64,000 nucleotides of DNA from Candidatus Zambryskibacteria bacterium RIFCSPHIGHO2_01_FULL_43_25 (GTDB lineage Bacteria > Patescibacteriota > Minisyncoccia > Phycocordibacterales > Zambryskibacteraceae), in NCBI GenBank assembly GCA_001823695.1, contig MHVD01000015.1:2445-66444 (forward strand), given 5' to 3'. How positions within the stretch are numbered: position 1 is the first letter of the stretch; every line of letters starts with the position of its first letter. Positions 12,480-22,454 of the stretch are shown here, piece by piece. The notes under the pieces were generated by a model. The model saw only the letters and a list, made by a program, of their open reading frames with translations, was not told the origin of the DNA and ran no database searches. A program made the position numbers and the translations under genes.

Positions 12480-14180
12480 ATGTTCCAGCGCATCTCGCGT
12501 CTGTTAAAAAAAGGGGTCATAAAGAGAGAAGGGGAAATTTACCCTGATGAGATTTTTATTGATTCGGAGAACCTTCCAGAATTTGATGTTGACCACTTTG
12601 AAGGGCGTCTGGAACAGCCTGTTGGCAAAAAAGTTTTTGCGTTTATTGCGATTTTTTTCGCACTAGTCGGTGTTTTGTTTGCCGGAAAAATCTGGATGCT
12701 ACAAATCAGAGAAGGCCGGGCTTACGAGGAAATGAGCGCAAATAACCACCTCAAGCATACGATTATATTTGCCGACCGGGGAATTATTTATGATCGCAAC
12801 AAAAAAGAGCTTGCCTGGAATATTGTTGACGCGGCCGGCGGCAATTTCTCCCTGCGGCGCTACGCGCCGCAGAGTGGCCTCGCCCACATACTCGGCTATG
12901 TATCATATCCGTCAAAAGACAAGTACGGCTTCTACTATGATGAGAATTTTACCGGCAAGGACGGAGTTGAATCCTATTACAACGAAACGCTGGCCGGCGA
13001 AAACGGCCTTAAGATTACCGAGACCGACGTAATGGGAAACGTGCAGTCGGAGAGCGTGCTGCGTCCGCCCCGCGACGGCAACAATATCTACCTTTCTGTG
13101 GATTCACGAATTTCGGAAAAATTGTATGATTTCATAAAAAGCACAGCGGCCGAATACGATTTTGCCGGCGGCGCGGGAATCATTCTTGACGTAAAAACCG
13201 GCGAGGTTCTGTCTCTGGTCAGTTTTCCCGAATTCAGCTCGGGAGTTATAACTGACGGCGAGGATAAGGACGCTATTAGGGAGCTTCTTGCCAATTCCGA
13301 TAAGCCGTTTTTGAACCGGGCTATCGGCGGGCTCTATACTCCCGGCTCAATCGTCAAGCCTTTCATCGCAGTCGGGGCGCTTGAAGAAGGAATAATAGAT
13401 CCGAAAAAACAGATTCTATCTACCGGACAAATTGAAGTTCCGAATCCTTACAACCCGGAGCAAAAAAGCGTTTTCAAAGACTGGAAGGCGCACGGCTGGG
13501 TAGATATGAGGCAAGCTATTGCCGTTTCTTCCAATGTTTATTTTTTCTCAATCGGCGGAGGATATGAAAACCAAAAGGGCCTAGGGATTACGAAAATCGC
13601 CGAATATCTGGAAAAATTTGGTCTGGGAAACGACACCGGCATTGACCTCAATGGCGAACAGGACGGACTTGTGCCGACGCCTGAATGGAAAAAGAACACC
13701 TTCAACGACGACCTCTGGCGCTTGGGCGATACTTACAACACTTCAATCGGGCAATACGGTTTTCAGGTTACGGCCCTGCAGATGGCGCGCACGGTCGCTT
13801 CTCTGGCTAACGGCGGGACCCTTGTTACCCCGACCGTCTTGCTTCGGGTTTCGGACAAAAAGGGGAAAGAGCTTGGGTTTAATCCGGACAATCTGAAAGT
13901 AGCCAGAGAGGGGATGAGATTGTCTGTAACGGATGGCATTGCCAGCAGTCTTGCGATACCGGGACTTTCTGTCGCGGCAAAAACTGGAACTGCGGAACTG
14001 GGCGTTACGAAAGAGAGGGTTAATTCTTGGGTTACCGGATTTTTCCCTTATGAGAACCCTAGGTTTTCTTTTGCAGTGGTAATGGAGAAAGGTCCCAGAA
14101 GCAACACGATTGGCGCCACGTATGTAATGCGTCAGCTTTTGGACTGGATGAATGTGAATACGCTGGAGTATGCGAGGTAG
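12480..14180 (+). CDS. mrdA: penicillin-binding protein 2 (elongation transpeptidase)
   Basis: PBP dimerisation + transpeptidase domains; start placed at MFQRIS (ATG 12480) rather than the overlapping upstream ORF start. Confidence 0.8.
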   Translation: MFQRISRLLKKGVIKREGEIYPDEIFIDSENLPEFDVDHFEGRLEQPVGKKVFAFIAIFFALVGVLFAGKIWMLQIREGRAYEEMSANNHLKHTIIFADRGIIYDRNKKELAWNIVDAAGGNFSLRRYAPQSGLAHILGYVSYPSKDKYGFYYDENFTGKDGVESYYNETLAGENGLKITETDVMGNVQSESVLRPPRDGNNIYLSVDSRISEKLYDFIKSTAAEYDFAGGAGIILDVKTGEVLSLVSFPEFSSGVITDGEDKDAIRELLANSDKPFLNRAIGGLYTPGSIVKPFIAVGALEEGIIDPKKQILSTGQIEVPNPYNPEQKSVFKDWKAHGWVDMRQAIAVSSNVYFFSIGGGYENQKGLGITKIAEYLEKFGLGNDTGIDLNGEQDGLVPTPEWKKNTFNDDLWRLGDTYNTSIGQYGFQVTALQMARTVASLANGGTLVTPTVLLRVSDKKGKELGFNPDNLKVAREGMRLSVTDGIASSLAIPGLSVAAKTGTAELGVTKERVNSWVTGFFPYENPRFSFAVVMEKGPRSNTIGATYVMRQLLDWMNVNTLEYAR

Positions 14181-14335
14181 CGTAAGACGTAAAACTTGTA
14201 GCGTAAAACATAAAGCGCAAATCTTGTGCGAATTCATACGTTACTTTTGCGCGACCGCGTAAAAATAACGTATGGGACAAAAAATTAAAAACAAAAAAAA
14301 GCCCCTCGTTCGTCAGGTGACAAACGAAGGACTCG

Positions 14336-14368
14336 CCCCTCACACGCCCTTGCGAGCGTGTGAGGGGG
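14336..14368 (-). terminator. hairpin CCCCTCACACGC...GCGTGTGAGGGG with downstream T-run (on - strand) after GC-rich gene
   Basis: 12-bp perfect stem; A-run 14293-14300 on + strand. Confidence 0.45.
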
Positions 14369-14382
14369 TGCGGGTTTGCTAC

Positions 14383-14976
14383 TTACTTCACGCTCGGCCC
14401 GCTGGAGGCGGAGCGAGGGCGAACGAGACGAGCAAGGCGAAGCCAATCGTGCGCGAGCCAGCGCCAGAGCAGGAGCCACGAGCGACCGCCCCAGGACAGG
14501 TACGGGACGTGCCGGTCGCCAGCCGCGTGGACGACAACGGTGCCGGAGAGCGGGATGTACGTCCCCGTCGGCAGGCCGAAGCCCTCATTGCGATACTTTG
14601 CAATGAAGGCCAGGCCATGGCGCAGGCCGAGGTCAGCCCGTGCGCTGGCCGCCCGAGACAACATCTCGTCGCTTGAGATGCTGTCTCGGCTGTTCTCGAG
14701 GAGCTCGATGAACTCGAGCTCCAGTGTGCCGACGGGTCCGACTGCGTCCTTCTCGACGCGGTCGATCCAATCCGGGAACTGGAGCTCTTCGGTCCCCGTC
14801 ACGGTGATGACAGGAATGAAGATCTCGCGAACTGCCCGAGCGAGCGCGGCATCGAACTTCGCACGCAACTCGCTCGGCCCGTCAATCAGGACCTGCGCGA
14901 GATGAGGAACGATTTCGTCCGGCGCGGGAAGGGCGCGGACGATCGAGGCCACTAGCTCGTTGAATTGCCGGGACAT
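14383..14976 (-). CDS. hypothetical protein, 197 aa, ~62% GC (foreign-looking cassette)
   Basis: Long ORF in GC-rich island; GGAGG 6 nt before ATG; protein-like composition, no recognised motif. Confidence 0.45.
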   Translation of the reverse strand: MSRQFNELVASIVRALPAPDEIVPHLAQVLIDGPSELRAKFDAALARAVREIFIPVITVTGTEELQFPDWIDRVEKDAVGPVGTLELEFIELLENSRDSISSDEMLSRAASARADLGLRHGLAFIAKYRNEGFGLPTGTYIPLSGTVVVHAAGDRHVPYLSWGGRSWLLLWRWLAHDWLRLARLVRPRSASSGPSVK

Positions 14977-15323
14977 ACTAACCTCCGTTCCGTGCGGCCA
15001 ACCCCTTACTCAAGCACCATGCTTGAGCCGAGAGCTTACCGCGTTGGTACAGCCCTCCATCTTTTATCCACAAAGTAAAAATAAAAAAATGGAGTACTTC
15101 AATCAAAAGATAAAAAGTGGGGGGCTGTACCAACAAGCTTGTCCGCTTAAGTTACGAAGCAGGTTTTTCAAGTAGCATATAAAGAACTTCTTCATGTATA
15201 TTATATCATACTTCGTATCTAAAAGTCAATGGGTTTTTTGCACAATTTTACTATCCTATTTTGTTGCCATTATTAGCCGTTTTTTTGCCCCCCACCTTTT
15301 GTCAGGAGACAAAAGGTGGGGGA

Positions 15324-17379: not shown

Positions 17380-17473
17380 GAGATAAGAAAGAACAGAAAT
17401 TAAACCCAGTTTTTTGTTCTTTTAGCTTCCTTTGTTCTTTTAGCCTCCTTCGATTTATTTTTCAACTCCATTT

Positions 17474-17513
17474 TCATTATACCCCTTATTCGGGCGAATA
17501 AGGGGTATAATGA
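17474..17513 (+). promoter_or_regulatory. 40-bp palindrome (18-bp perfect arms) embedding TATAAT: candidate ArsR operator/promoter
   Basis: TCATTATACCCCTTATTC-GGGC-GAATAAGGGGTATAATGA, 40 bp upstream of arsR ATG. Confidence 0.5.
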
Positions 17514-17553
17514 AAGATGTGGTGGGGCGCGGTGAGTGTGATGATAAAAGCAG

Positions 17554-17835
17554 ATGAAAGAAACTGAAAAAATATTAAAGGCGTTAGCCAACAGAAGAAG
17601 ACTGGTAATGATTCAATATTTAAGAAAAGAAAAAGAGGCGGCCGTAGGAGGTGTCGCTAATCATTTGAAATTATCTTTCAAGGCAACTTCAAGACATCTA
17701 AATGTTCTATATTCAGCTGGGATTGTGGATAGGGAACAGAGAAATGTGGAAGTGTGGTATAGACTGTCGCCGACCTTACACCCAATCGCGAAATTTATCT
17801 CTAATTCGCTTGCCTACCTGCGCAGGCAGGAATAG
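17554..17835 (+). CDS. arsR: ArsR/SmtB-family HTH repressor (paralog 1)
   Basis: 93 aa; winged-helix segment SFKATSRHLNVLYSAGIV. Confidence 0.75.
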   Translation: MKETEKILKALANRRRLVMIQYLRKEKEAAVGGVANHLKLSFKATSRHLNVLYSAGIVDREQRNVEVWYRLSPTLHPIAKFISNSLAYLRRQE

Positions 17836-17886
17836 GAGAATAGAAGTTTGGGGGTGATGCCAAACTATTGGACCATTACTGGGGGG

Positions 17887-17914
17887 TTGACAAATCCTGT
17901 GTATTTGCTATAAT
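17887..17914 (+). promoter_or_regulatory. consensus sigma70 promoter TTGACA-16-TATAAT
   Basis: Perfect hexamers read directly upstream of the GC-rich phosphatase gene. Confidence 0.6.
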
Positions 17915-17932
17915 TGATACGGAGTTGTTCGT

Positions 17933-18412
17933 TTGCAGTTATCCTGCCCAAATTGGCAAAACGCGGGAGACAAGATGTTTCGGATTCTCGCAGTTTGCAA
18001 GGGGAATCGGTCTCGCAGTCCCATGTTTGAAGCTCTGCTTCAGCTGGCACTGCAGGAGAACGGCAGGACCGACGTGGTCGTGGAAAGTGCGGGAACAATC
18101 CAAGAAGCGGCAAATCATCCGGCCGAAGAGGGCGCACTAGTTGCCGCCAAGCGGGTTGGTCTCGATCTGAGCGGCCACGTCAGTCGCTGGGTTGGCGATC
18201 TCAATCTCAGGGACTTCCATATCATCTACTGCATGGAGCCCTCGGTGAGAGACGTCGTCCGAGAGTTCAATCTGCCTCCGACGGTCCGGATCATTCTGGT
18301 AAACGAGGAGCAGGGAGGAATCCCCAATCCCTACCAGAAGGGGCAGGAAGCATACGATGAGTCGCTGGAGGTCATCAGGTCTGTGGTCGGGAAAATCGTC
18401 CGCGATCTGTAA
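17933..18412 (+). CDS. low-molecular-weight phosphotyrosine phosphatase / ArsC-type arsenate reductase (57% GC)
   Basis: P-loop VCKGNRSRS (CX5R); likely true start MFRILAV at 17975; GGGAGA SD. Confidence 0.65.
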   Translation: MQLSCPNWQNAGDKMFRILAVCKGNRSRSPMFEALLQLALQENGRTDVVVESAGTIQEAANHPAEEGALVAAKRVGLDLSGHVSRWVGDLNLRDFHIIYCMEPSVRDVVREFNLPPTVRIILVNEEQGGIPNPYQKGQEAYDESLEVIRSVVGKIVRDL

Positions 18413-18431
18413 CCTTTCCACGAGTCGTTCA

Positions 18432-18468
18432 GGGAGCGGTCACAATGTGTGCCCGCTCCTTTTGTTTA
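18432..18468. terminator. bidirectional intrinsic terminator GGGAGCGG...CCGCTCC + TTTTGTTT
   Basis: Between convergent genes. Confidence 0.55.
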
Positions 18469-19566
18469 AGAAATTATTCTTACCACTCCATTTTCAGCAT
18501 CCACCTCTACCTTGTTACCGTCTTTTAATATTTCTGTTGCGTTGCCAGTTCCGACGATGCAGGGGATGTTTAATTCTCTGCTCACTATTGCAGCGTGAGA
18601 TAGAAGCCCGCCCTGGTCAGTAATTATTGCTCCGGCCTTCTTGCAAGCCGGCATAAGTTCCGGGGAGGTCGTCTCTGCTACAAGAATGTCTCCGTCATCC
18701 ATTTCATCAAATAATCTTGTTAATATACTAAAATCGGAATAGTAATCTGTGGAGATTACTTTTATTTTTCCTATTGCTTTACCTTTGTTAGCAACCACAC
18801 CCACTATCTCACGTTTCTCTTTCTTAGATTCCTTAATAAATCTAGACACAATTTTCTTAGCGTCTTCTCCCTCAATGTAAGTCATCGCTCCATCTTGTGC
18901 ATACTGGACAAATACCTGTGCGCGGGCGTTGAGTAACTTCTCGGGAACCGCCTCACCGTCAAAAAGTCTTGGCACTTCCTCAACTCTGTACATTTTGAGC
19001 TGTTCAATCGGAACAGAAAATTGTTTGGATATTAAAGTAATCAGTTGGTCAGCATAACCTCCGCTAAAAATCAGCTGATTCAAGTATTGTCGGCCAGCAC
19101 CTTTGATTTCTTCAAAGATTTCAATATTATGAGTGAGCTCTTTTGATGGATTGTGCTCCAATTTCATATATACCCTGTCTGTATAGAAAAATTCAGTTTT
19201 TGAATAGAAGCTAAACATCTCGGAAATAAGGGTAAAAGATTTGACCGCCTCTTCTCTGGTCAGTTGACTCTTTTTGAGCAAAACTTCAAAAAAAATTGTA
19301 GACCGGTCTTTATACTCCTGAAAATCTTTTACGTATTGAGTGAAGAACTTTTCACTACTAAGTAAGGTCAAACCGTCTTGCAGTGTCTTTTCAATGACCT
19401 TTCTTGGCAGATAGCTTGTCCATATTCCGTTTACTCCCATTAGTAAACAGTCAAGGTTTTTATAATGTCCTCCGAAGACATCGGATAAAAGGTACACGAG
19501 GCCTCCTTTTAAGCGGAATAAACGTTGATAATCTTCTGATTTTATATGTGGGAATCCGGCAGTCAT
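18466..19566 (-). CDS. PEP-utilizing-enzyme mobile (His swivel) domain protein with ~270-aa unknown N-domain
   Basis: C-terminal TDQGGLLSHAAIVSRELNIPCIVG matches the swivel phospho-His motif. Confidence 0.65.
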   Translation of the reverse strand: MTAGFPHIKSEDYQRLFRLKGGLVYLLSDVFGGHYKNLDCLLMGVNGIWTSYLPRKVIEKTLQDGLTLLSSEKFFTQYVKDFQEYKDRSTIFFEVLLKKSQLTREEAVKSFTLISEMFSFYSKTEFFYTDRVYMKLEHNPSKELTHNIEIFEEIKGAGRQYLNQLIFSGGYADQLITLISKQFSVPIEQLKMYRVEEVPRLFDGEAVPEKLLNARAQVFVQYAQDGAMTYIEGEDAKKIVSRFIKESKKEKREIVGVVANKGKAIGKIKVISTDYYSDFSILTRLFDEMDDGDILVAETTSPELMPACKKAGAIITDQGGLLSHAAIVSRELNIPCIVGTGNATEILKDGNKVEVDAENGVVRIIS

Positions 19567-19853
19567 GATCTTTTCAGTATTTTTACAACCCCAACATTAG
19601 CATCTACCTCGACTAGGTCGCCATCTTTTAAGACTTGTGTAGCAACCTTGGTGCCAATAATACAAGGTTTATGAAGTTCTCTACTAATTATCGCGGCATG
19701 GCACAAAACACCCCCTTCGTCGGTAATAATAGCTGACACATTTTTAAGTCTCGGTGTAAATTCTGGTGTTGTTTGGGGAGCTACCAAAACTGAATTAACG
19801 GGAATGTTTTGCAAATCTTTTTTTAATAAAACCACCTTTACTATCCCGGTCAC
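19563..19853 (-). CDS. standalone PEP-utilizing-enzyme mobile domain (96 aa)
   Basis: TDEGGVLCHAAIISRELHKPCIIG; start/stop overlap (ATGA) with downstream gene. Confidence 0.6.
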   Translation of the reverse strand: MTGIVKVVLLKKDLQNIPVNSVLVAPQTTPEFTPRLKNVSAIITDEGGVLCHAAIISRELHKPCIIGTKVATQVLKDGDLVEVDANVGVVKILKRS

Positions 19854-19936
19854 TTTTCCTTTATATGCGATATCTCCCTTAATTTCTTTGCTCCCATTTT
19901 TCTCTTGAGTTTGTGGAATTATCCTACGGTACTTAT

Positions 19937-21604
19937 TTAATGCGTTACTGTCAGAGTAAATAATTTGCCTGTTATATATTGTGCAAAGAAGATAATATTT
20001 TGACCTTTTTTTATTTCATTCCAATCAAAATTACCTCCGGACCCCATCAGTTTAATGATTTCGTCTGGCGTTAAAAAATAAAGGAGCCTCTTTTTCACAG
20101 AGAAAGTTTTTGCCAGGTAATTAAACAAATGGGGTAAATATTCCTCGTCAAAAAACAGAAAAGGATTGTGATTTCTGACCTTATTTAGTAGCTTTTCGTT
20201 TTCTTTTAAAAGATTCCGGTATAGAGTATTTTCAATGGCTTTGTCTAAATTAAATACAAAAAGATGATAAGACCAATACCTCAAGTAAAACTTATTAAAT
20301 TTTTTAAATTGATTTATAACCCATTGTTGTGATTTTTTGTCTAGATCGGTATTGATAAAACTTTGTGTCAACTTTATTCGTTGATCAATAATCTTTTTAA
20401 AATTTTTCAAAATACTGACTAATTTACCTTTTTTAACATACTTAATTATTTGATCTTTTACCCGTTGATCATCTTCAAAACTCTTATAACCCTTAAGGAA
20501 AGATTTCTCTGAAAAATAAAACAAACCTTTACTTTTAAACTCAAAAGTAGATTTATAAATACCAGTTTGGACTAAAAATGGATAATATATCGCGGTCAGG
20601 GACATGTCTCTTGATATATGGTTTATATATTGCTGATGAGGTTTTTTGACCTTATCTAATTTATCTAATGTAGTGATCGGTCTGCTTTGGGTAATATAAA
20701 ATTTCCCATTTTCATAAGCCCATTCAATATCGCAAGGAAATCCGTAATGGTTTTCTATTTTTACAATCAGATCAGCCAATTCAAGTATTTGACTTTCCTT
20801 TAAAACTTGAGAAGACGCTTGCGGTTTATAGATTTCTTTCCACTCATTTTCTCCGCTTCTCGATTTATACAGACCTCTCTTTTGAGTATTTACCGTTGTA
20901 TCAATTATTTTTCTTGGTTCCTTTTCAACAACATAAGAATCAGGAGTTATAGCTCCAGATACGATAGCTTCTCCAAGCCCAAAGCCAGCTTCGATAATGA
21001 GTTGATTTCTATCTTCTGTAATCGGATGGACTGAAAATGCTACCCCCGATACTTCCGACTGAACCATCTTCTGCACTACAACAGCTACAGAAATATCCGT
21101 GCCGTGAAGTTCTTTCTCAAAGCGATAAAAGATTGCCCTCGGAGTAAAGAGAGAAGACCAGCATTTCTTAACTTTATCGAGCAAGTCATCTTCCGTGGTG
21201 TTCAAATAGCTCTCAAGTTGACCCGCCCAAGCGTGCTCTGTTCCGTCTTCGGCCGTAGCAGAGGATCGGACAGCGACAAATTCTGTTTTAAGGAATTCGA
21301 ACTCTTTTTTAATCTCGTTACAGATATCAGATAGAATCTTCTGTTTTTCTATAAGTCCTCGTATTTTTTCTGAAGCTCTCTCAACAGTGTGAATTGCTTT
21401 ATGATCGACTGTCTTTAGAATTGCATCAATCTCCTGGGTTAAATCAGTCTCGTGGAGAAAGTGGTCAAAGGTGGCTGAGAGGATTACAAAACCATTGGGA
21501 ACAGGAATTCCGACCCGTGTCATTTCACCCAAAGAGGCACCCTTGCCGCCTGCCTTGTCGGCGTCTTTTTTAGTCAGCTTACTAAAAGGAGAGGTATATT
21601 TCAT
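19937..21604 (-). CDS. PEP synthase / pyruvate phosphate dikinase N-terminal ATP-grasp domain protein with C-terminal extension
   Basis: N-terminal ~330 aa match PPDK_N nucleotide-binding domain (KAGGKGASLGEM..., VAVRSSATAEDG); no swivel or TIM-barrel domain in same ORF. Confidence 0.7.
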   Translation of the reverse strand: MKYTSPFSKLTKKDADKAGGKGASLGEMTRVGIPVPNGFVILSATFDHFLHETDLTQEIDAILKTVDHKAIHTVERASEKIRGLIEKQKILSDICNEIKKEFEFLKTEFVAVRSSATAEDGTEHAWAGQLESYLNTTEDDLLDKVKKCWSSLFTPRAIFYRFEKELHGTDISVAVVVQKMVQSEVSGVAFSVHPITEDRNQLIIEAGFGLGEAIVSGAITPDSYVVEKEPRKIIDTTVNTQKRGLYKSRSGENEWKEIYKPQASSQVLKESQILELADLIVKIENHYGFPCDIEWAYENGKFYITQSRPITTLDKLDKVKKPHQQYINHISRDMSLTAIYYPFLVQTGIYKSTFEFKSKGLFYFSEKSFLKGYKSFEDDQRVKDQIIKYVKKGKLVSILKNFKKIIDQRIKLTQSFINTDLDKKSQQWVINQFKKFNKFYLRYWSYHLFVFNLDKAIENTLYRNLLKENEKLLNKVRNHNPFLFFDEEYLPHLFNYLAKTFSVKKRLLYFLTPDEIIKLMGSGGNFDWNEIKKGQNIIFFAQYITGKLFTLTVTH

Positions 21605-21662
21605 TGTCTTAATTTAGCATTTTTACACCTTTTTACAATTTTGGATTAGTAAGGTGCTAGAT

Positions 21663-21701
21663 CCCGTCGAAGTCTTCGGACTTCGGCGGGGTTTTGTTTT
21701 T
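21663..21701 (+). terminator. orphan terminator-like hairpin CCCGTCGAAGTC-TTCG-GACTTCGGCGGG + TTTTGTTTTT
   Basis: No + strand gene upstream; lies in divergent intergenic region. Confidence 0.3.
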
Positions 21702-21802
21702 CTGGCGACGACGATTTTTTGGTATTTTTTGATGGATTTATCTTGGCTAGGTTTAAGGAGATTTGAAACTTTTGCACACCTGTGGATAACAGGGTATAGG
21801 AG

Positions 21803-21846
21803 GTGGGAATAAGTGTTATATACTATTAGTCAAGTGGGAAGAAGTG
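21803..21846 (+). promoter_or_regulatory. direct repeats GTGGGAATAAGTG / GTGGGAAGAAGTG upstream of mraZ (candidate MraZ boxes)
   Basis: Two 13-nt repeats 31 bp apart. Confidence 0.3.
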
Positions 21847-21878
21847 GTAAAAAACAAACGAGCATAACGAGTATTGTT

Positions 21879-21986
21879 TTTACCACCCAGCACTTATTTT
21901 CCACACCAAACTTTGCATGAGGTTTGCTGCCATACCTGCAAAGTCGCGACTATTTTAAAAAATTGTAAGTGCTGGGTGGAGATTTT
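21879..21986 (+). repeat. inverted-repeat element (family b): CCACCCAGCACTTA ... TAAGTGCTGGGTGG
   Basis: 14-bp perfect arms; paralog of 7361-7460. Confidence 0.45.
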
Positions 21987-22019
21987 CTAAGTTTGCTTCA
22001 CTCACTAAGAAAATCACCC

Positions 22020-22454
22020 ATGTTTATAGGCGAGTATACACATACAGTAGACGAGAAGAAGCGCATCTCTCTGCCGTCGAAGTTCCGCAAGGAACTCGGC
22101 AAAAAAATCGTTGTTACCCACGGGTTGGACAACTGTTTGCTTGTTTATTCGCTTAGGTCGTGGGGCGAGATTGCTCAAAAGCTTGGTTCTCTTCCCATGG
22201 GGCAACGCGATACCAGAGGCTTCGGCCGGTTCATGCTTGCCGGCGCAGTGGAGATGGACGTGGATTCAATTGGTCGAATTTTGGTTCCGGAATTCTTGCG
22301 TGATTACGCTGACTTAAAAACCAAAGTGGTATTTGCCGGTGTCTATGACCGCATTGAAATTTGGAACGACAGGCAGTGGGTCCTGTATAAGAAGCGAATC
22401 GAGAAGGATGCCGATGGCATGGCGGAGAAATTGGGCGAAATCGGCGTGTTTTAA
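22020..22454 (+). CDS. mraZ: transcriptional regulator MraZ
   Basis: MFIGEYTHTVDEKKRISLPSKFR signature; first gene of dcw cluster. Confidence 0.85.
   Translation: MFIGEYTHTVDEKKRISLPSKFRKELGKKIVVTHGLDNCLLVYSLRSWGEIAQKLGSLPMGQRDTRGFGRFMLAGAVEMDVDSIGRILVPEFLRDYADLKTKVVFAGVYDRIEIWNDRQWVLYKKRIEKDADGMAEKLGEIGVF

What the first reader, a model, noticed from the sequence alone, without database searches (positions are those of the whole stretch)
18466..21604. Split three-gene PEP-synthase/rifampin-phosphotransferase-like module with two separate phospho-His swivel proteins
Gene 1 (19937-21604) has a PPDK_N ATP-grasp domain plus a ~220-aa helical extension. Gene 2 (19563-19853) is a swivel domain alone. 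Gene 3 (18466-19566) has a ~270-aa unknown domain plus a second swivel domain. Genes 2 and 3 are translationally coupled (ATGA). Known PEP synthases, PPDKs and rifampin phosphotransferases fuse ATP-grasp, substrate-binding and a single swivel domain in one polypeptide. A split form with a duplicated swivel module suggests a phosphotransfer relay to an unknown, possibly antibiotic-like, substrate. The locus is AT-rich and sits between two GC-rich cassette regions.
Basis: partly seen in the sequence, partly recalled or inferred. Interest (0 to 1): 0.6.

Follow-up and report, generated by a model that had tools for sequence, protein, structure and literature searches.

The report
Broken two-module phosphate-transfer enzyme cassette
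The three reading frames are really a two-gene enzyme, with one gene broken by a single missing A. It belongs to a large unstudied family in ultra-small bacteria and archaea, where one ATP-using domain appears to serve several phosphate-carrying modules and a small phosphatase-like gene sits alongside.

Summary
The ORFs and domains are as described: PPDK_N ATP-grasp, two PF00391 swivels, and an ATGA overlap. However, genes 1 and 2 are one gene. Gene 2's frame is open back to an A7 run (20006-20012) inside gene 1. One extra A restores a 680-aa protein that is colinear with intact relatives (69% identity). Seven independent assemblies carry the same A7.

The native unit has two modules: ATP-grasp–X1–swivel, then X2–swivel (gene 3). 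X1 and X2 are homologous helical domains. The best structural matches are rifampin phosphotransferase (RPH), and there is no PEP/pyruvate TIM barrel.

Hundreds of Patescibacteria and DPANN homologues fuse all parts into 1000-1190-aa proteins, split them at other domain boundaries, or expand them into arrays. In 82 loci I counted 261 swivels against 48 ATP-grasp ORFs.

A divergent LMW-PTP-like gene (17975-18412, catalytic Asp replaced by Asn) is a conserved neighbour. It also flanks the paralogue in the same genome.

Most likely this is an RPH/HpeHI-type dikinase in which one ATP-grasp charges swivel histidines in cis and in trans. The substrate is unknown. I rate it a new variant of a known kind.

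The parts
20630..21604 (-). ATP-grasp (PPDK_N) nucleotide-binding domain, residues 1-325 of gene 1
   Evidence: PF01326 at residues 17-324, E=5e-96. Aligns to RPH-Lm residues 7-341 with Lys22, Arg117 and Thr136 matched by K21, R113 and S132. In the covalent proxy P0004, the RPH ATP domain 5hv6 superposes with TM 0.92.
20006..20629 (-). X1 acceptor-type helical domain, first 208 residues (gene 1 residues 326-533), read in the gene 1 frame
   Evidence: My own X1 HMM hits this region. It is 73% identical to X1 of the intact relative P0002. The P0004 model shows the same secondary-structure pattern as X2.
20006..20012 (-). A7 homopolymer, the frameshift site (ATA AAA AAA GGT). A8, or a -1 slip, joins gene 1 to the gene 2 frame
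   Evidence: The relative L001 reads GAA ATA TGC GAG AGA CGG AAA TAT TAT in frame. The window lacks one base. A7 is present in 7 independent assemblies.
19937..20005 (-). 22 out-of-frame codons plus the stop codon that end the annotated gene 1 ORF
   Evidence: This tail (GQNIIFFAQYITGKLFTLTVTH*) has no counterpart in P0002 or P0003. The -1 frame of the same DNA matches them.
19884..20006 (-). End of X1 and the linker, in the -1 frame (RSKYYLLCTIYNRQIIYSDSNALNKYRRIIPQTQEKNGSKE). Annotated partly as the gene 1 tail and partly as intergenic
   Evidence: Near-identical to P0002 and P0003 across the junction. Aligns colinearly with gene 3.
19566..19883 (-). Swivel phospho-His domain 1 (Sw1). The annotated gene 2 ORF (19563-19853) starts at a GTG inside its third strand. 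The catalytic His codon is 19698-19700
   Evidence: PF00391, E=7e-25. 82-87% identical to Sw1 of intact P0002 and P0003, so no decay is visible. Motif TDEGGVLCHAAIISRE.
19563..19566 (-). ATGA overlap of the module-1 stop and the gene 3 start (translational coupling)
   Evidence: The same overlap is found in the relative L090, where the first gene is intact.
18817..19566 (-). X2 acceptor-type domain (gene 3 residues 1-250). It has an alpha/beta subdomain plus a five-helix bundle, with invariant F17, Y35, K155 and near-invariant Y121-S-K-T-E-F-F-Y-T-D130, R159, N163, R215
   Evidence: AF2 model pLDDT 95.5. Foldseek top hits are RPH-Lm, with 281-414 aligned columns. Conservation. 319 representative proteins carry this domain.
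18469..18810 (-). Swivel phospho-His domain 2 (Sw2). The catalytic His324 codon is 18595-18597
   Evidence: PF00391, E=6e-27. hhalign to RPH-Lm residues 699-866, probability 99.1. H324 is invariant in 89 sequences.
17975..18412 (+). Divergent LMW-PTP-like gene, convergent with gene 3 and 53 bp away. It is a conserved partner of the family. It has the CKGNRSRS P-loop, but IPNPY replaces DPY
   Evidence: PF01451, E=2e-17. Best PDB matches are YfkJ, Wzb and PtpA, with Asp replaced by Asn. In 82 loci, 16 of 17 LMWPc genes lie within 220 bp of a family gene and none lies in about 780 kb of remaining flank. It also adjoins the same-genome paralogue and the syntenic relative L092.
17887..17914 (+). 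Perfect sigma-70-type promoter consensus (TTGACA-16-TATAAT with upstream TG) in front of the LMW-PTP-like gene
   Evidence: This is a pattern match only.

Best explanation
The locus is a two-module member of a Patescibacteria/DPANN family of rifampin-phosphotransferase-like (RPH-like) 'small-molecule' dikinases, together with its conserved LMW-PTP-like partner.

Native state (shown by relatives):
- Gene A encodes ATP-grasp - X1 - swivel-His.
- Gene B (gene 3 here) encodes X2 - swivel-His and is translationally coupled to gene A through ATGA.
- In this Zambryskibacteria population, gene A has lost one A from an A8 run. It is therefore read as gene 1 (ATP-grasp - X1 plus a 22-residue junk tail) and an N-terminally clipped swivel ORF (gene 2).

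Inferred mechanism, by homology with RPH, PpsAB and HpeHI:
1. The ATP-grasp binds ATP.
2. A swivel His attacks the beta-phosphate, the gamma-phosphate is hydrolysed, and His~P results.
3. The swivel returns to its own X domain and passes the phosphate to an acceptor. The acceptor sits in a pocket lined by the conserved K155/R159/N163 helix and the YSKTEFFYTD motif.

Gene 3 has no ATP-grasp, so it must be charged in trans by gene 1. After the frameshift, gene 1 plus gene 3 still make a complete two-component dikinase.

The LMW-PTP-like protein probably reverses or regulates the phosphorylation. The acceptor is unknown. A phenolic or aryl hydroxyl is the best guess.
For: Shown:
- Domain content.
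- Gene 2's frame is open to the A7 run, and homology continues upstream of its start.
- Intact relatives P0002 and P0003 (690 and 715 aa, 68-69% identity, 100% coverage) read straight through the site.
- L090 has an intact first gene plus a gene 3 orthologue with the same ATGA overlap.
- A7 is reproduced in 7 assemblies from several samples and assemblers.
- Hundreds of 1000-1190-aa homologues carry PPDK_N plus two PF00391 domains and run continuously across both junctions.
- X1 and X2 are homologous and have the same secondary-structure pattern.
- Foldseek top hits for both models are RPH-Lm (E=1e-11 and 1e-35) and HpeI. PEPS and PPDK score lower, and no TIM-barrel family is hit.
- hhalign matches gene 3 residues 186-365 to RPH residues 699-866.
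- Catalytic residues of the ATP-grasp and both swivel His motifs are intact.
- Sw1 is as conserved as in intact relatives.
- In 82 loci there are 261 swivels against 48 ATP-grasp ORFs. 185 swivel ORFs lack an ATP-grasp, and there is essentially at most one ATP-grasp per locus.
- ATP-grasp is 67% and the swivels 52-55% conserved, against 16-17% for X.
- The LMWPc neighbour association holds up.

Literature:
- Two-component dikinases PpsAB, CreHI and HpeHI work by trans-charging and phosphorylate phenolic OH groups (PMC12167813).
- RPH mechanism and key residues (PMC4844700).
Against: - There is no biochemical or expression data.
- The N-terminal ~185 residues of X2 cannot be aligned to the rifampin-binding domain by sequence.
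- The proposed K155/R159 = Arg666/Lys670 equivalence is a manual alignment. The Glu667 position is Asn or Gly, so it is not conserved.
- The frameshift may have inactivated module 1, or the whole operon.
- The LMW-PTP-like partner lacks the general-acid Asp, so it may not be a simple phosphatase.
- Loci were collected by similarity to gene 3, and many come from MAGs of uneven quality.
Confidence: 0.72

Rival explanations
1. This is a naturally split three-protein system: ATP-grasp protein, free swivel protein, and substrate-domain-plus-swivel protein. Phosphate is relayed from one swivel to the other.
For: Three ORFs are called in every annotation. A genuine three-gene form exists elsewhere: L092 has AG | X1-Sw | X2-Sw.
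Against: The gene 1/gene 2 boundary lies inside a domain, at a homopolymer. It is bridged by one base and is absent from all relatives. The GTG start removes the first two strands of the swivel. Natural splits fall at domain boundaries. Every swivel has its own X domain.
Confidence: 0.04
2. The locus is a decaying pseudogene remnant. The frameshift marks loss of function, tolerated because the genome keeps an intact paralogue (P0006, 1042 aa).
For: The frameshift is fixed in the population. An intact paralogue with its own LMWPc sits in the same genome. Broken modules occur in other arrays, such as L084 and L013.
Against: There is only one lesion. All catalytic motifs are intact. Sw1 is 82-87% identical to intact relatives, as close as they are to each other. 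Gene 3 and the LMWPc gene are intact. Gene 1 plus gene 3 still equal a known working two-component layout.
Confidence: 0.15
3. The full-length 680-aa protein is still made, either by -1 ribosomal frameshifting on A_AAA_AAA_G or by transcriptional slippage on the A7 run. The break would then be regulatory.
For: A AAA AAA G is a classic slippery heptamer. A -1 shift gives exactly the homologue-like sequence ...EIKKRSKYYLLC....
Against: There is no downstream structure (MFE -3.9 kcal/mol, z=+1.4). The nearest upstream GGAGG is about 21 nt away, which is too far. The site is not conserved: relatives are in frame without an A run.
Confidence: 0.08
4. The frameshift is a sequencing or assembly error, and the real genome has A8.
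For: Homopolymers are error-prone.
Against: A7 appears in 7 contigs from different samples, centres and assemblers. They are 100% identical over 3.3 kb, or differ at one other position. These are Illumina consensus assemblies.
Confidence: 0.03
5. It is a conventional PEP synthase/PPDK (gluconeogenesis), or a genuine rifampin-resistance RPH.
For: Database names say 'phosphoenolpyruvate synthase'. CPR resistome surveys count rph-like genes (PMC8651080).
Against: No PEP/pyruvate TIM-barrel domain is present in any ORF. All NCBIfam equivalog scores are far below their cut-offs. X is about 250 aa against 428 aa for the rifampin-binding domain, and only its last ~70 residues align.
Confidence: 0.03

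Closest known systems
Rifampin phosphotransferase (RPH-Lm; PDB 5fbs, 5fbt, 5fbu, 5hv1)
   Same: Same order of ATP-grasp, helical acceptor domain and C-terminal swivel His. It is the best structural match for both models. The swivel plus the preceding ~70 residues align at 99% probability. The ATP-site residues are kept.
   Different: The acceptor domain is about 250 aa rather than 428 aa, and is unalignable by sequence over its first ~185 residues. The [acceptor + swivel] unit is duplicated, or multiplied, per ATP-grasp. Glu667 is not conserved. Nothing links it to rifamycins.
Two-component small-molecule dikinases PpsAB (phenylphosphate synthase), CreHI and HpeHI
   Same: An ATP-grasp on one polypeptide charges a swivel His on another polypeptide that also carries the acceptor site. 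Gene 1 plus gene 3 would work this way. HpeI (9goj) is a top structural hit. Layouts with a stand-alone ATP-grasp plus X-swivel genes are common in the family (L092).
   Different: Here the ATP-grasp protein also carries its own acceptor-plus-swivel module. One ATP-grasp accompanies 2 to more than 10 acceptor modules. The acceptor domains are shorter. PRK08296-type models match only the swivel region. The family is found in CPR and DPANN rather than in aromatic-degrading bacteria.
PEP synthase / pyruvate phosphate dikinase
   Same: Homologous ATP-grasp and swivel domains, and the same His~P chemistry.
   Different: There is no PEP/pyruvate-binding TIM barrel, and the domain order differs.
PigC / RedH / HapC prodiginine-condensing enzymes
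   Same: RPH-like three-domain architecture. NCBIfam hits cover the ATP-grasp and swivel parts.
   Different: Scores are far below the cut-offs. There is no biosynthetic cluster context. Those enzymes have a single module.
LMW protein-tyrosine phosphatases (YfkJ, Wzb, PtpA)
   Same: The neighbouring gene has the same fold family and the CX5R(S) P-loop.
   Different: The general-acid Asp of DPY is Asn in most array-linked copies. The partner is a dikinase rather than a BY-kinase. It lacks the ArsC Cys pair.

Membership tests
RPH-type dikinase (ATP-grasp + acceptor domain + swivel His) | N-terminal PPDK_N ATP-grasp with the ATP-positioning residues (RPH Lys22, Arg117, Thr136) | tested here: met
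   PF01326, E=5e-96. K21, R113 and S132 align to these residues. TM 0.92 to 5hv6 in the P0004 model.
RPH-type dikinase (ATP-grasp + acceptor domain + swivel His) | C-terminal swivel domain with the GGxx(S/C)HAAI catalytic His within about 50 residues of the C-terminus | tested here: met
   Both swivels have it (gene 2 H52, gene 3 H324). H324 is invariant in 89 sequences.
RPH-type dikinase (ATP-grasp + acceptor domain + swivel His) | Central domain homologous to the rifampin-binding domain (residues 327-754; apex, arm 1, arm 2) | tested here: inconclusive
   Foldseek alignments to RPH extend over 281-414 columns, beyond the swivel, and about 880 columns for P0004. By sequence, only RPH residues 699-754 align. 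X is about 250 aa, so at least one subdomain is missing.
RPH-type dikinase (ATP-grasp + acceptor domain + swivel His) | The Arg666-Glu667-Lys670 phosphate-transfer triad | tested here: inconclusive
   Invariant K155 and near-invariant R159 occupy the same helix, 31-33 residues before the aligned block. The Glu position is Asn or Gly. This is a manual alignment only.
RPH-type dikinase (ATP-grasp + acceptor domain + swivel His) | Phosphorylation of rifamycins with ATP giving AMP + Pi | not testable with these tools
   Needs an enzyme assay.
PEP synthase / PPDK | PEP/pyruvate-binding TIM-barrel domain (PF02896) | tested here: not met
   No hit in any of the three ORFs, or in 8 homologues, at E<=1 or E<=0.01. 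PEPS and PPDK equivalog scores are far below their cut-offs.
Two-component dikinases (PpsAB / CreHI / HpeHI) | ATP-grasp and (acceptor domain + swivel) on separate polypeptides | tested here: met
   Gene 3 is X2-swivel without an ATP-grasp, and gene 1 carries the ATP-grasp. However, gene 1 natively carries its own module as well.
Two-component dikinases (PpsAB / CreHI / HpeHI) | Acceptor component of the PpsA/HpeH type (about 600 aa; PRK08296-like N-domain) | tested here: not met
   PRK08296 models match only gene 3 residues 244-366, that is the linker and swivel. Gene 3 is 366 aa.
LMW protein-tyrosine phosphatase (neighbouring gene 17975-18412) | CX5R(S/T) P-loop | tested here: met
   CKGNRSRS. 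PF01451, E=2e-17.
LMW protein-tyrosine phosphatase (neighbouring gene 17975-18412) | General-acid Asp in the DPY(Y) loop | tested here: not met
   IPNPY aligns with VPDPYY of YfkJ. Asn is also found in L014, L023, L029, L033, L060, L092 and L093.
LMW-PTP-type arsenate reductase (ArsC) | Downstream Cys pair (Cys82/Cys89 of pI258 ArsC) | tested here: not met
   No conserved Cys at those alignment positions. ArsC models score 21-22 bits against cut-offs of 157-174.
Programmed -1 ribosomal frameshift | Slippery heptamer plus a stimulatory element, conserved among relatives | tested here: not met
   The heptamer A_AAA_AAA is present. There is no downstream structure, and relatives are in frame without an A run.

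The most novel reading that the evidence does not exclude
Patescibacteria and DPANN archaea may share an undescribed, modular, ATP-driven phosphotransfer system. In it, a single highly conserved ATP-grasp 'charging station' loads many exchangeable [acceptor-pocket + phospho-His carrier] modules, up to 10 or more per locus, either as separate genes or as 2000-4300-aa polyproteins. A dedicated LMW-PTP-fold partner usually lacks the general-acid Asp. That partner might act on phospho-His, or as a phospho-Cys carrier like PTS EIIB-cellobiose, rather than as a plain phosphatase. Such a system could trap or activate a panel of scavenged host metabolites, working as a functional stand-in for a PTS or a salvage-kinase set in these minimal episymbionts. 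The window would hold a minimal two-module copy.
Probability: 0.2. Interest if true: 0.8.

Novelty: new variant of a known kind. Interest (0 to 1): 0.55.

Why it matters
For this window, three annotated genes collapse into a two-gene dikinase with one fresh frameshift. That removes the idea of a free swivel protein.

The family behind it is more interesting:
- It is abundant in two 'microbial dark matter' radiations that lack most biosynthesis, and databases name it only 'PEP synthase' or 'PEP-utilizing enzyme'.
- The PMC and bioRxiv full-text searches I ran found no description of its multi-module architecture or its phosphatase-like partner.
- One ATP-grasp serving many fast-diverging acceptor modules would be a new way to build a multi-substrate kinase.
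- The modules swap by recombination. Here the ATP-grasp and X1-swivel have different nearest relatives.
- The consistent LMW-PTP-like partner gives a concrete handle for biochemistry.
- Annotation pipelines and resistome surveys that count these genes as ppsA or rph are probably wrong.

Tried and rejected
- My first guess for the frameshift site, near 19950, was wrong. Comparison with P0002 and P0003 and with L001 DNA places it at the A7 run.
- Programmed frameshifting: no stimulatory RNA structure and no conservation.
- Arsenate reductase reading of the arsR-like + LMWPc pair: rejected on motifs and model scores. The ArsR-like gene is not a recurrent neighbour.
- Anti-phage defence: no PADLOC hit for the dikinase or the LMWPc.
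- RNA elements: no credible Rfam match in 17400-22100 and no tRNA.
- Sequence-profile extension of X2 into the rifampin-binding domain stops at RPH residue 698/699.
- Six literature searches found no prior description of the multi-swivel arrays.
- The AT-richness is not by itself proof of recent transfer. The same-genome paralogue shows the same pattern, with a 37% GC dikinase and a 52% GC LMWPc.


Full report
**Observation**

The three minus-strand ORFs exist at the stated coordinates. Gene 1 (21604-19937, 555 aa) carries PF01326 PPDK_N at residues 17-324 (E=5e-96). Gene 2 (19853-19563, 96 aa) and gene 3 (19566-18466, 366 aa) each carry one PF00391 swivel domain (E=7e-25 and 6e-27). No ORF hits the PEP/pyruvate TIM-barrel family, and all NCBIfam PEPS, PPDK, RPH and PigC equivalogs score far below their cut-offs. 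Genes 2 and 3 overlap by ATGA. The locus is AT-rich: gene 1 is 35% GC (its C-terminal part 28%), genes 2 and 3 are 39-40%, and the neighbouring housekeeping genes are 45-50%.

**Genes 1 and 2 are one gene**

- Gene 2's reading frame is open for 54 codons upstream of its GTG. It runs back to a TGA at 20018 and overlaps the last 26 codons of gene 1.
- BLASTP homology of that frame to gene 3 continues upstream of the GTG.
- The closest database relatives, P0002 (690 aa, 69% identity) and P0003 (715 aa, 68%), are single polypeptides with PPDK_N plus one swivel.
- Their sequence '...DWGEICERRKYYLLCKIYNREVIYSGNDAL...' matches the gene 1 frame up to '...DWNEIKK'. After that it matches the gene 2 frame, 'RSKYYLLCTIYNRQIIYSDSNAL...'.
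- At the DNA level the relative reads GAA ATA TGC GAG AGA CGG AAA TAT TAT. The window reads GAA ATA AAA AAA -GG TCA AAA TAT TAT, so one base is missing from a poly-A run at 20006-20012.
- Restoring it gives a 680-aa protein.
- My first placement of the shift, near 19950, was wrong.
- The A7 allele is present in seven contigs from different Rifle-aquifer samples, data centres and assemblers. Five are 100% identical over 3.3 kb, and the two shorter contigs differ at one base each. It is therefore a real feature of that population, not a one-off assembly error.
- A_AAA_AAA_G is a slippery heptamer, and a -1 slip would give exactly the homologue-like product. However, there is no downstream structure (z=+1.4) and the site is not conserved. 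I therefore treat it as a recent mutation rather than a programmed event.
- The swivel encoded by gene 2 is 82-87% identical to that of the intact relatives. They are 85% identical to each other, so no decay is visible.

**Architecture of the family**

- The C-terminal 365 residues of the repaired protein align colinearly with the 366 residues of gene 3 (35% identity over the last ~210 residues, E=8e-33).
- The AF2 model of P0004, a 1025-aa homologue that covalently contains all three window ORFs, has a mean pLDDT of 87.9. It shows the same secondary-structure pattern twice, each time followed by a swivel: strand, helix, hairpin, five long helices, hairpin, helix.
- The unit is therefore ATP-grasp + [X1-Sw1] + [X2-Sw2].
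- Most of the best 120 homologues are 1000-1190-aa Patescibacteria proteins with PPDK_N and two PF00391 domains. They include P0006, a 1042-aa paralogue in the same Zambryskibacteria genome.
- Gene 3 belongs to a large set of stand-alone ~360-aa 'PEP-utilizing enzyme' proteins.
- Its X2 domain alone finds 319 representatives among 1.84 billion 50%-identity clusters. They occur in ~360-aa, ~670-aa and 1000-1500-aa contexts.
- In L090, the 70%-identical gene 3 orthologue follows an intact, continuous ATP-grasp-X1-Sw1 gene with the same ATGA overlap. The coupled two-gene form is therefore the native state of this clade.
- In L092 (65% identity) the same cassette sits beside mraZ-rsmH-ftsL-ftsI, as it does in the window, but inverted. 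There it is split as AG (314 aa) | X1-Sw (338 aa) | X2-Sw (364 aa). Natural splits thus fall at domain boundaries, unlike the gene 1/gene 2 break.

**What kind of enzyme**

- The gene 3 model (pLDDT 95.5, pTM 0.90) and the P0004 model both find rifampin phosphotransferase RPH-Lm as their best PDB match (E=1e-11 and 1e-35).
- The RPH alignments run far beyond the swivel. HpeI, the ATP-grasp component of a two-component phenol dikinase, and the RPH ATP domain (TM 0.92) come next. PEPS and PPDK are weaker.
- hhalign matches gene 3 residues 186-365 to RPH-Lm residues 699-866 at 99.1% probability. The first ~185 residues of X2 do not align by sequence.
- X is about 250 aa, against 428 aa for the rifampin-binding domain (PMC4844700).
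- The ATP-site residues Lys22, Arg117 and Thr136 of RPH correspond to K21, R113 and S132.
- Both swivels keep the catalytic His.
- In X2 the invariant K155 and near-invariant R159 and N163 lie on the helix preceding the aligned block. That is where RPH has Arg666 and Lys670. This equivalence is my manual inference, and the Glu667 position is not conserved.
- A near-invariant motif, Y121-S-K-T-E-F-F-Y-T-D130, is a further active-site candidate.

**Wider pattern**

I scanned one genome per species with the gene 3 family and typed the results with my own domain HMMs.

- The family occurs across Patescibacteria and DPANN archaea and rarely elsewhere.
- It often forms tandem arrays of [X-Sw] modules. 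Up to about 10-12 genes occur in a row (L077, L084). Some are fused into proteins of 2000 to over 4300 aa (L045, L085, L035, L081).
- In 82 loci there are 261 swivel domains but only 48 ATP-grasp ORFs. 185 swivel ORFs have no ATP-grasp, and there is essentially at most one ATP-grasp per locus.
- Among 45 two-module proteins, mean pairwise identity is 67% for the ATP-grasp and 52-55% for the swivels, but only 16-17% for X1 and X2.
- X domains fall into many clusters in two size classes, about 250 aa and 340-400 aa.
- The window gene is itself a mosaic. Its ATP-grasp is closest to P0005, P0004 and P0006 (79-88%) and only 65-69% identical to P0002 and P0003. Its X1-Sw1 is closest to P0002 and P0003 (74-75%) and unrelated to X1 of P0005.
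- This fits a conserved charger and carrier pair combined with exchangeable, fast-diverging acceptor pockets.

**A conserved partner outside the reported coordinates**

- The most recurrent neighbour of these genes is an LMW-PTP-family protein (PF01451).
- As an internal control, 16 of 17 LMWPc hits in the 82 loci lie within 220 bp of a family gene. One lies 2.2 kb away, and none lies in the remaining ~780 kb of flank.
- In the window it is 17975-18412 (+), convergent with gene 3 and 53 bp away.
- The syntenic relative L092 has it in the same relation.
- The same-genome paralogue P0006 has its own copy 28 bp downstream (39% identical), next to a large serine recombinase.
- The best characterised matches are the tyrosine phosphatases YfkJ, Wzb and PtpA, not ArsC. 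The P-loop is intact, but the general-acid Asp of DPY is Asn in the window and in most array-linked copies.

**Mechanism**

Shown: the domain set, the intact catalytic motifs, the frameshift, the native two-gene operon, the structural kinship to RPH and HpeI, the excess of swivels over ATP-grasps, and the LMWPc linkage.

Inferred from the established RPH, PpsAB and HpeHI mechanism (PMC4844700, PMC12167813):
1. The ATP-grasp presents ATP.
2. A swivel His takes the beta-phosphate, with loss of the gamma-phosphate.
3. The swivel returns to its own X domain.
4. It phosphorylates a bound acceptor.

Gene 3 must be charged in trans by gene 1, as PpsA and HpeH are charged by PpsB and HpeI. After the frameshift, gene 1 plus gene 3 still form a complete two-component dikinase. 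Module 1 is probably lost unless slippage rescues it. The acceptor is unknown. Characterised two-component relatives phosphorylate phenolic hydroxyls, and LMW-PTPs hydrolyse aryl phosphates. A phenolic or aryl acceptor is therefore my best guess, at low confidence.

**Novelty**

RPH-like and two-component dikinases are known. What is new is the multiplication of [acceptor + swivel] modules per ATP-grasp, their restriction to CPR and DPANN, and the dedicated Asp-less LMW-PTP-like partner. Six full-text searches found no description of these features. One CPR resistome survey counts rph-like genes (PMC8651080). I classify the locus as a new variant of a known kind. The window copy is a minimal, freshly frameshifted instance.

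Noticed in passing
L045, L085, L035, L081, L047 (whole loci); L077, L084, L066, L067: There are giant polyproteins (2000 to over 4300 aa) with one ATP-grasp and up to about 11 swivel modules, and tandem runs of 7-12 separate X-swivel genes, in Patescibacteria and DPANN archaea.
   Followed up: partly
L093/L094 3452-4873 and 8072-8503 (same genome as the window, contig MHWE01000013.1): The intact 1042-aa paralogue P0006 is flanked by a large serine recombinase on one side and its own Asn-type LMWPc on the other. This suggests that the dikinase+LMWPc pair moves as a cassette.
   Followed up: partly
window 20630 boundary (gene 1 residues ~320-330): Mosaic ancestry. The ATP-grasp is nearest to P0005, P0004 and P0006 (79-88%), while X1-Sw1 is nearest to P0002 and P0003 (74-75%). 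GC drops from 40% to 28% at the same boundary.
   Followed up: partly
L024 13503-14330, L030 3783-4760, L054 8963-9817, L065 1097-1945; L035 16679-17581, L079 17230-18153, L073 12480-13337: Two further recurrent proteins of about 280-300 aa, with no significant Pfam match, are embedded inside the arrays.
   Followed up: no
L010 4303-5976 and 11042-11638: This array contains an HTH-fused X-swivel protein (557 aa) and a His_Phos_1 phosphatase gene.
   Followed up: no
window 21659-21694 (+): A strong 16-bp hairpin followed by a T-run lies in the gene 1/mraZ divergent intergenic region. No upstream plus-strand gene needs terminating there, and there is no Rfam match.
   Followed up: partly
window 14000-15000: This stretch is 58% GC, against a window mean of 44%. 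It has several long overlapping ORFs on both strands (e.g. 14383-14976 on the minus strand, 197 aa), none with a Pfam hit.
   Followed up: partly
window 17461-17524: A long hairpin lies between lysS and the arsR-like gene. It gives only sub-threshold chance matches to miRNA precursor models and is probably the lysS terminator.
   Followed up: no
L084 8540-8700; L013 2520-2620: Other arrays also contain modules broken by frameshifts or small deletions: an X1|Sw break in L084 and an AG|AG break in L013. The loci are therefore decay-prone or dynamic, or these MAG consensus sequences are imperfect.
   Followed up: partly
L044 (Akkermansia glycaniphila), L052 (Saprospiraceae): Single AG-X-Sw proteins (662-667 aa) with the gene-3-type X domain occur in a few non-CPR bacteria, including a cultured Akkermansia species. 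These could serve as an experimental entry point.
   Followed up: no
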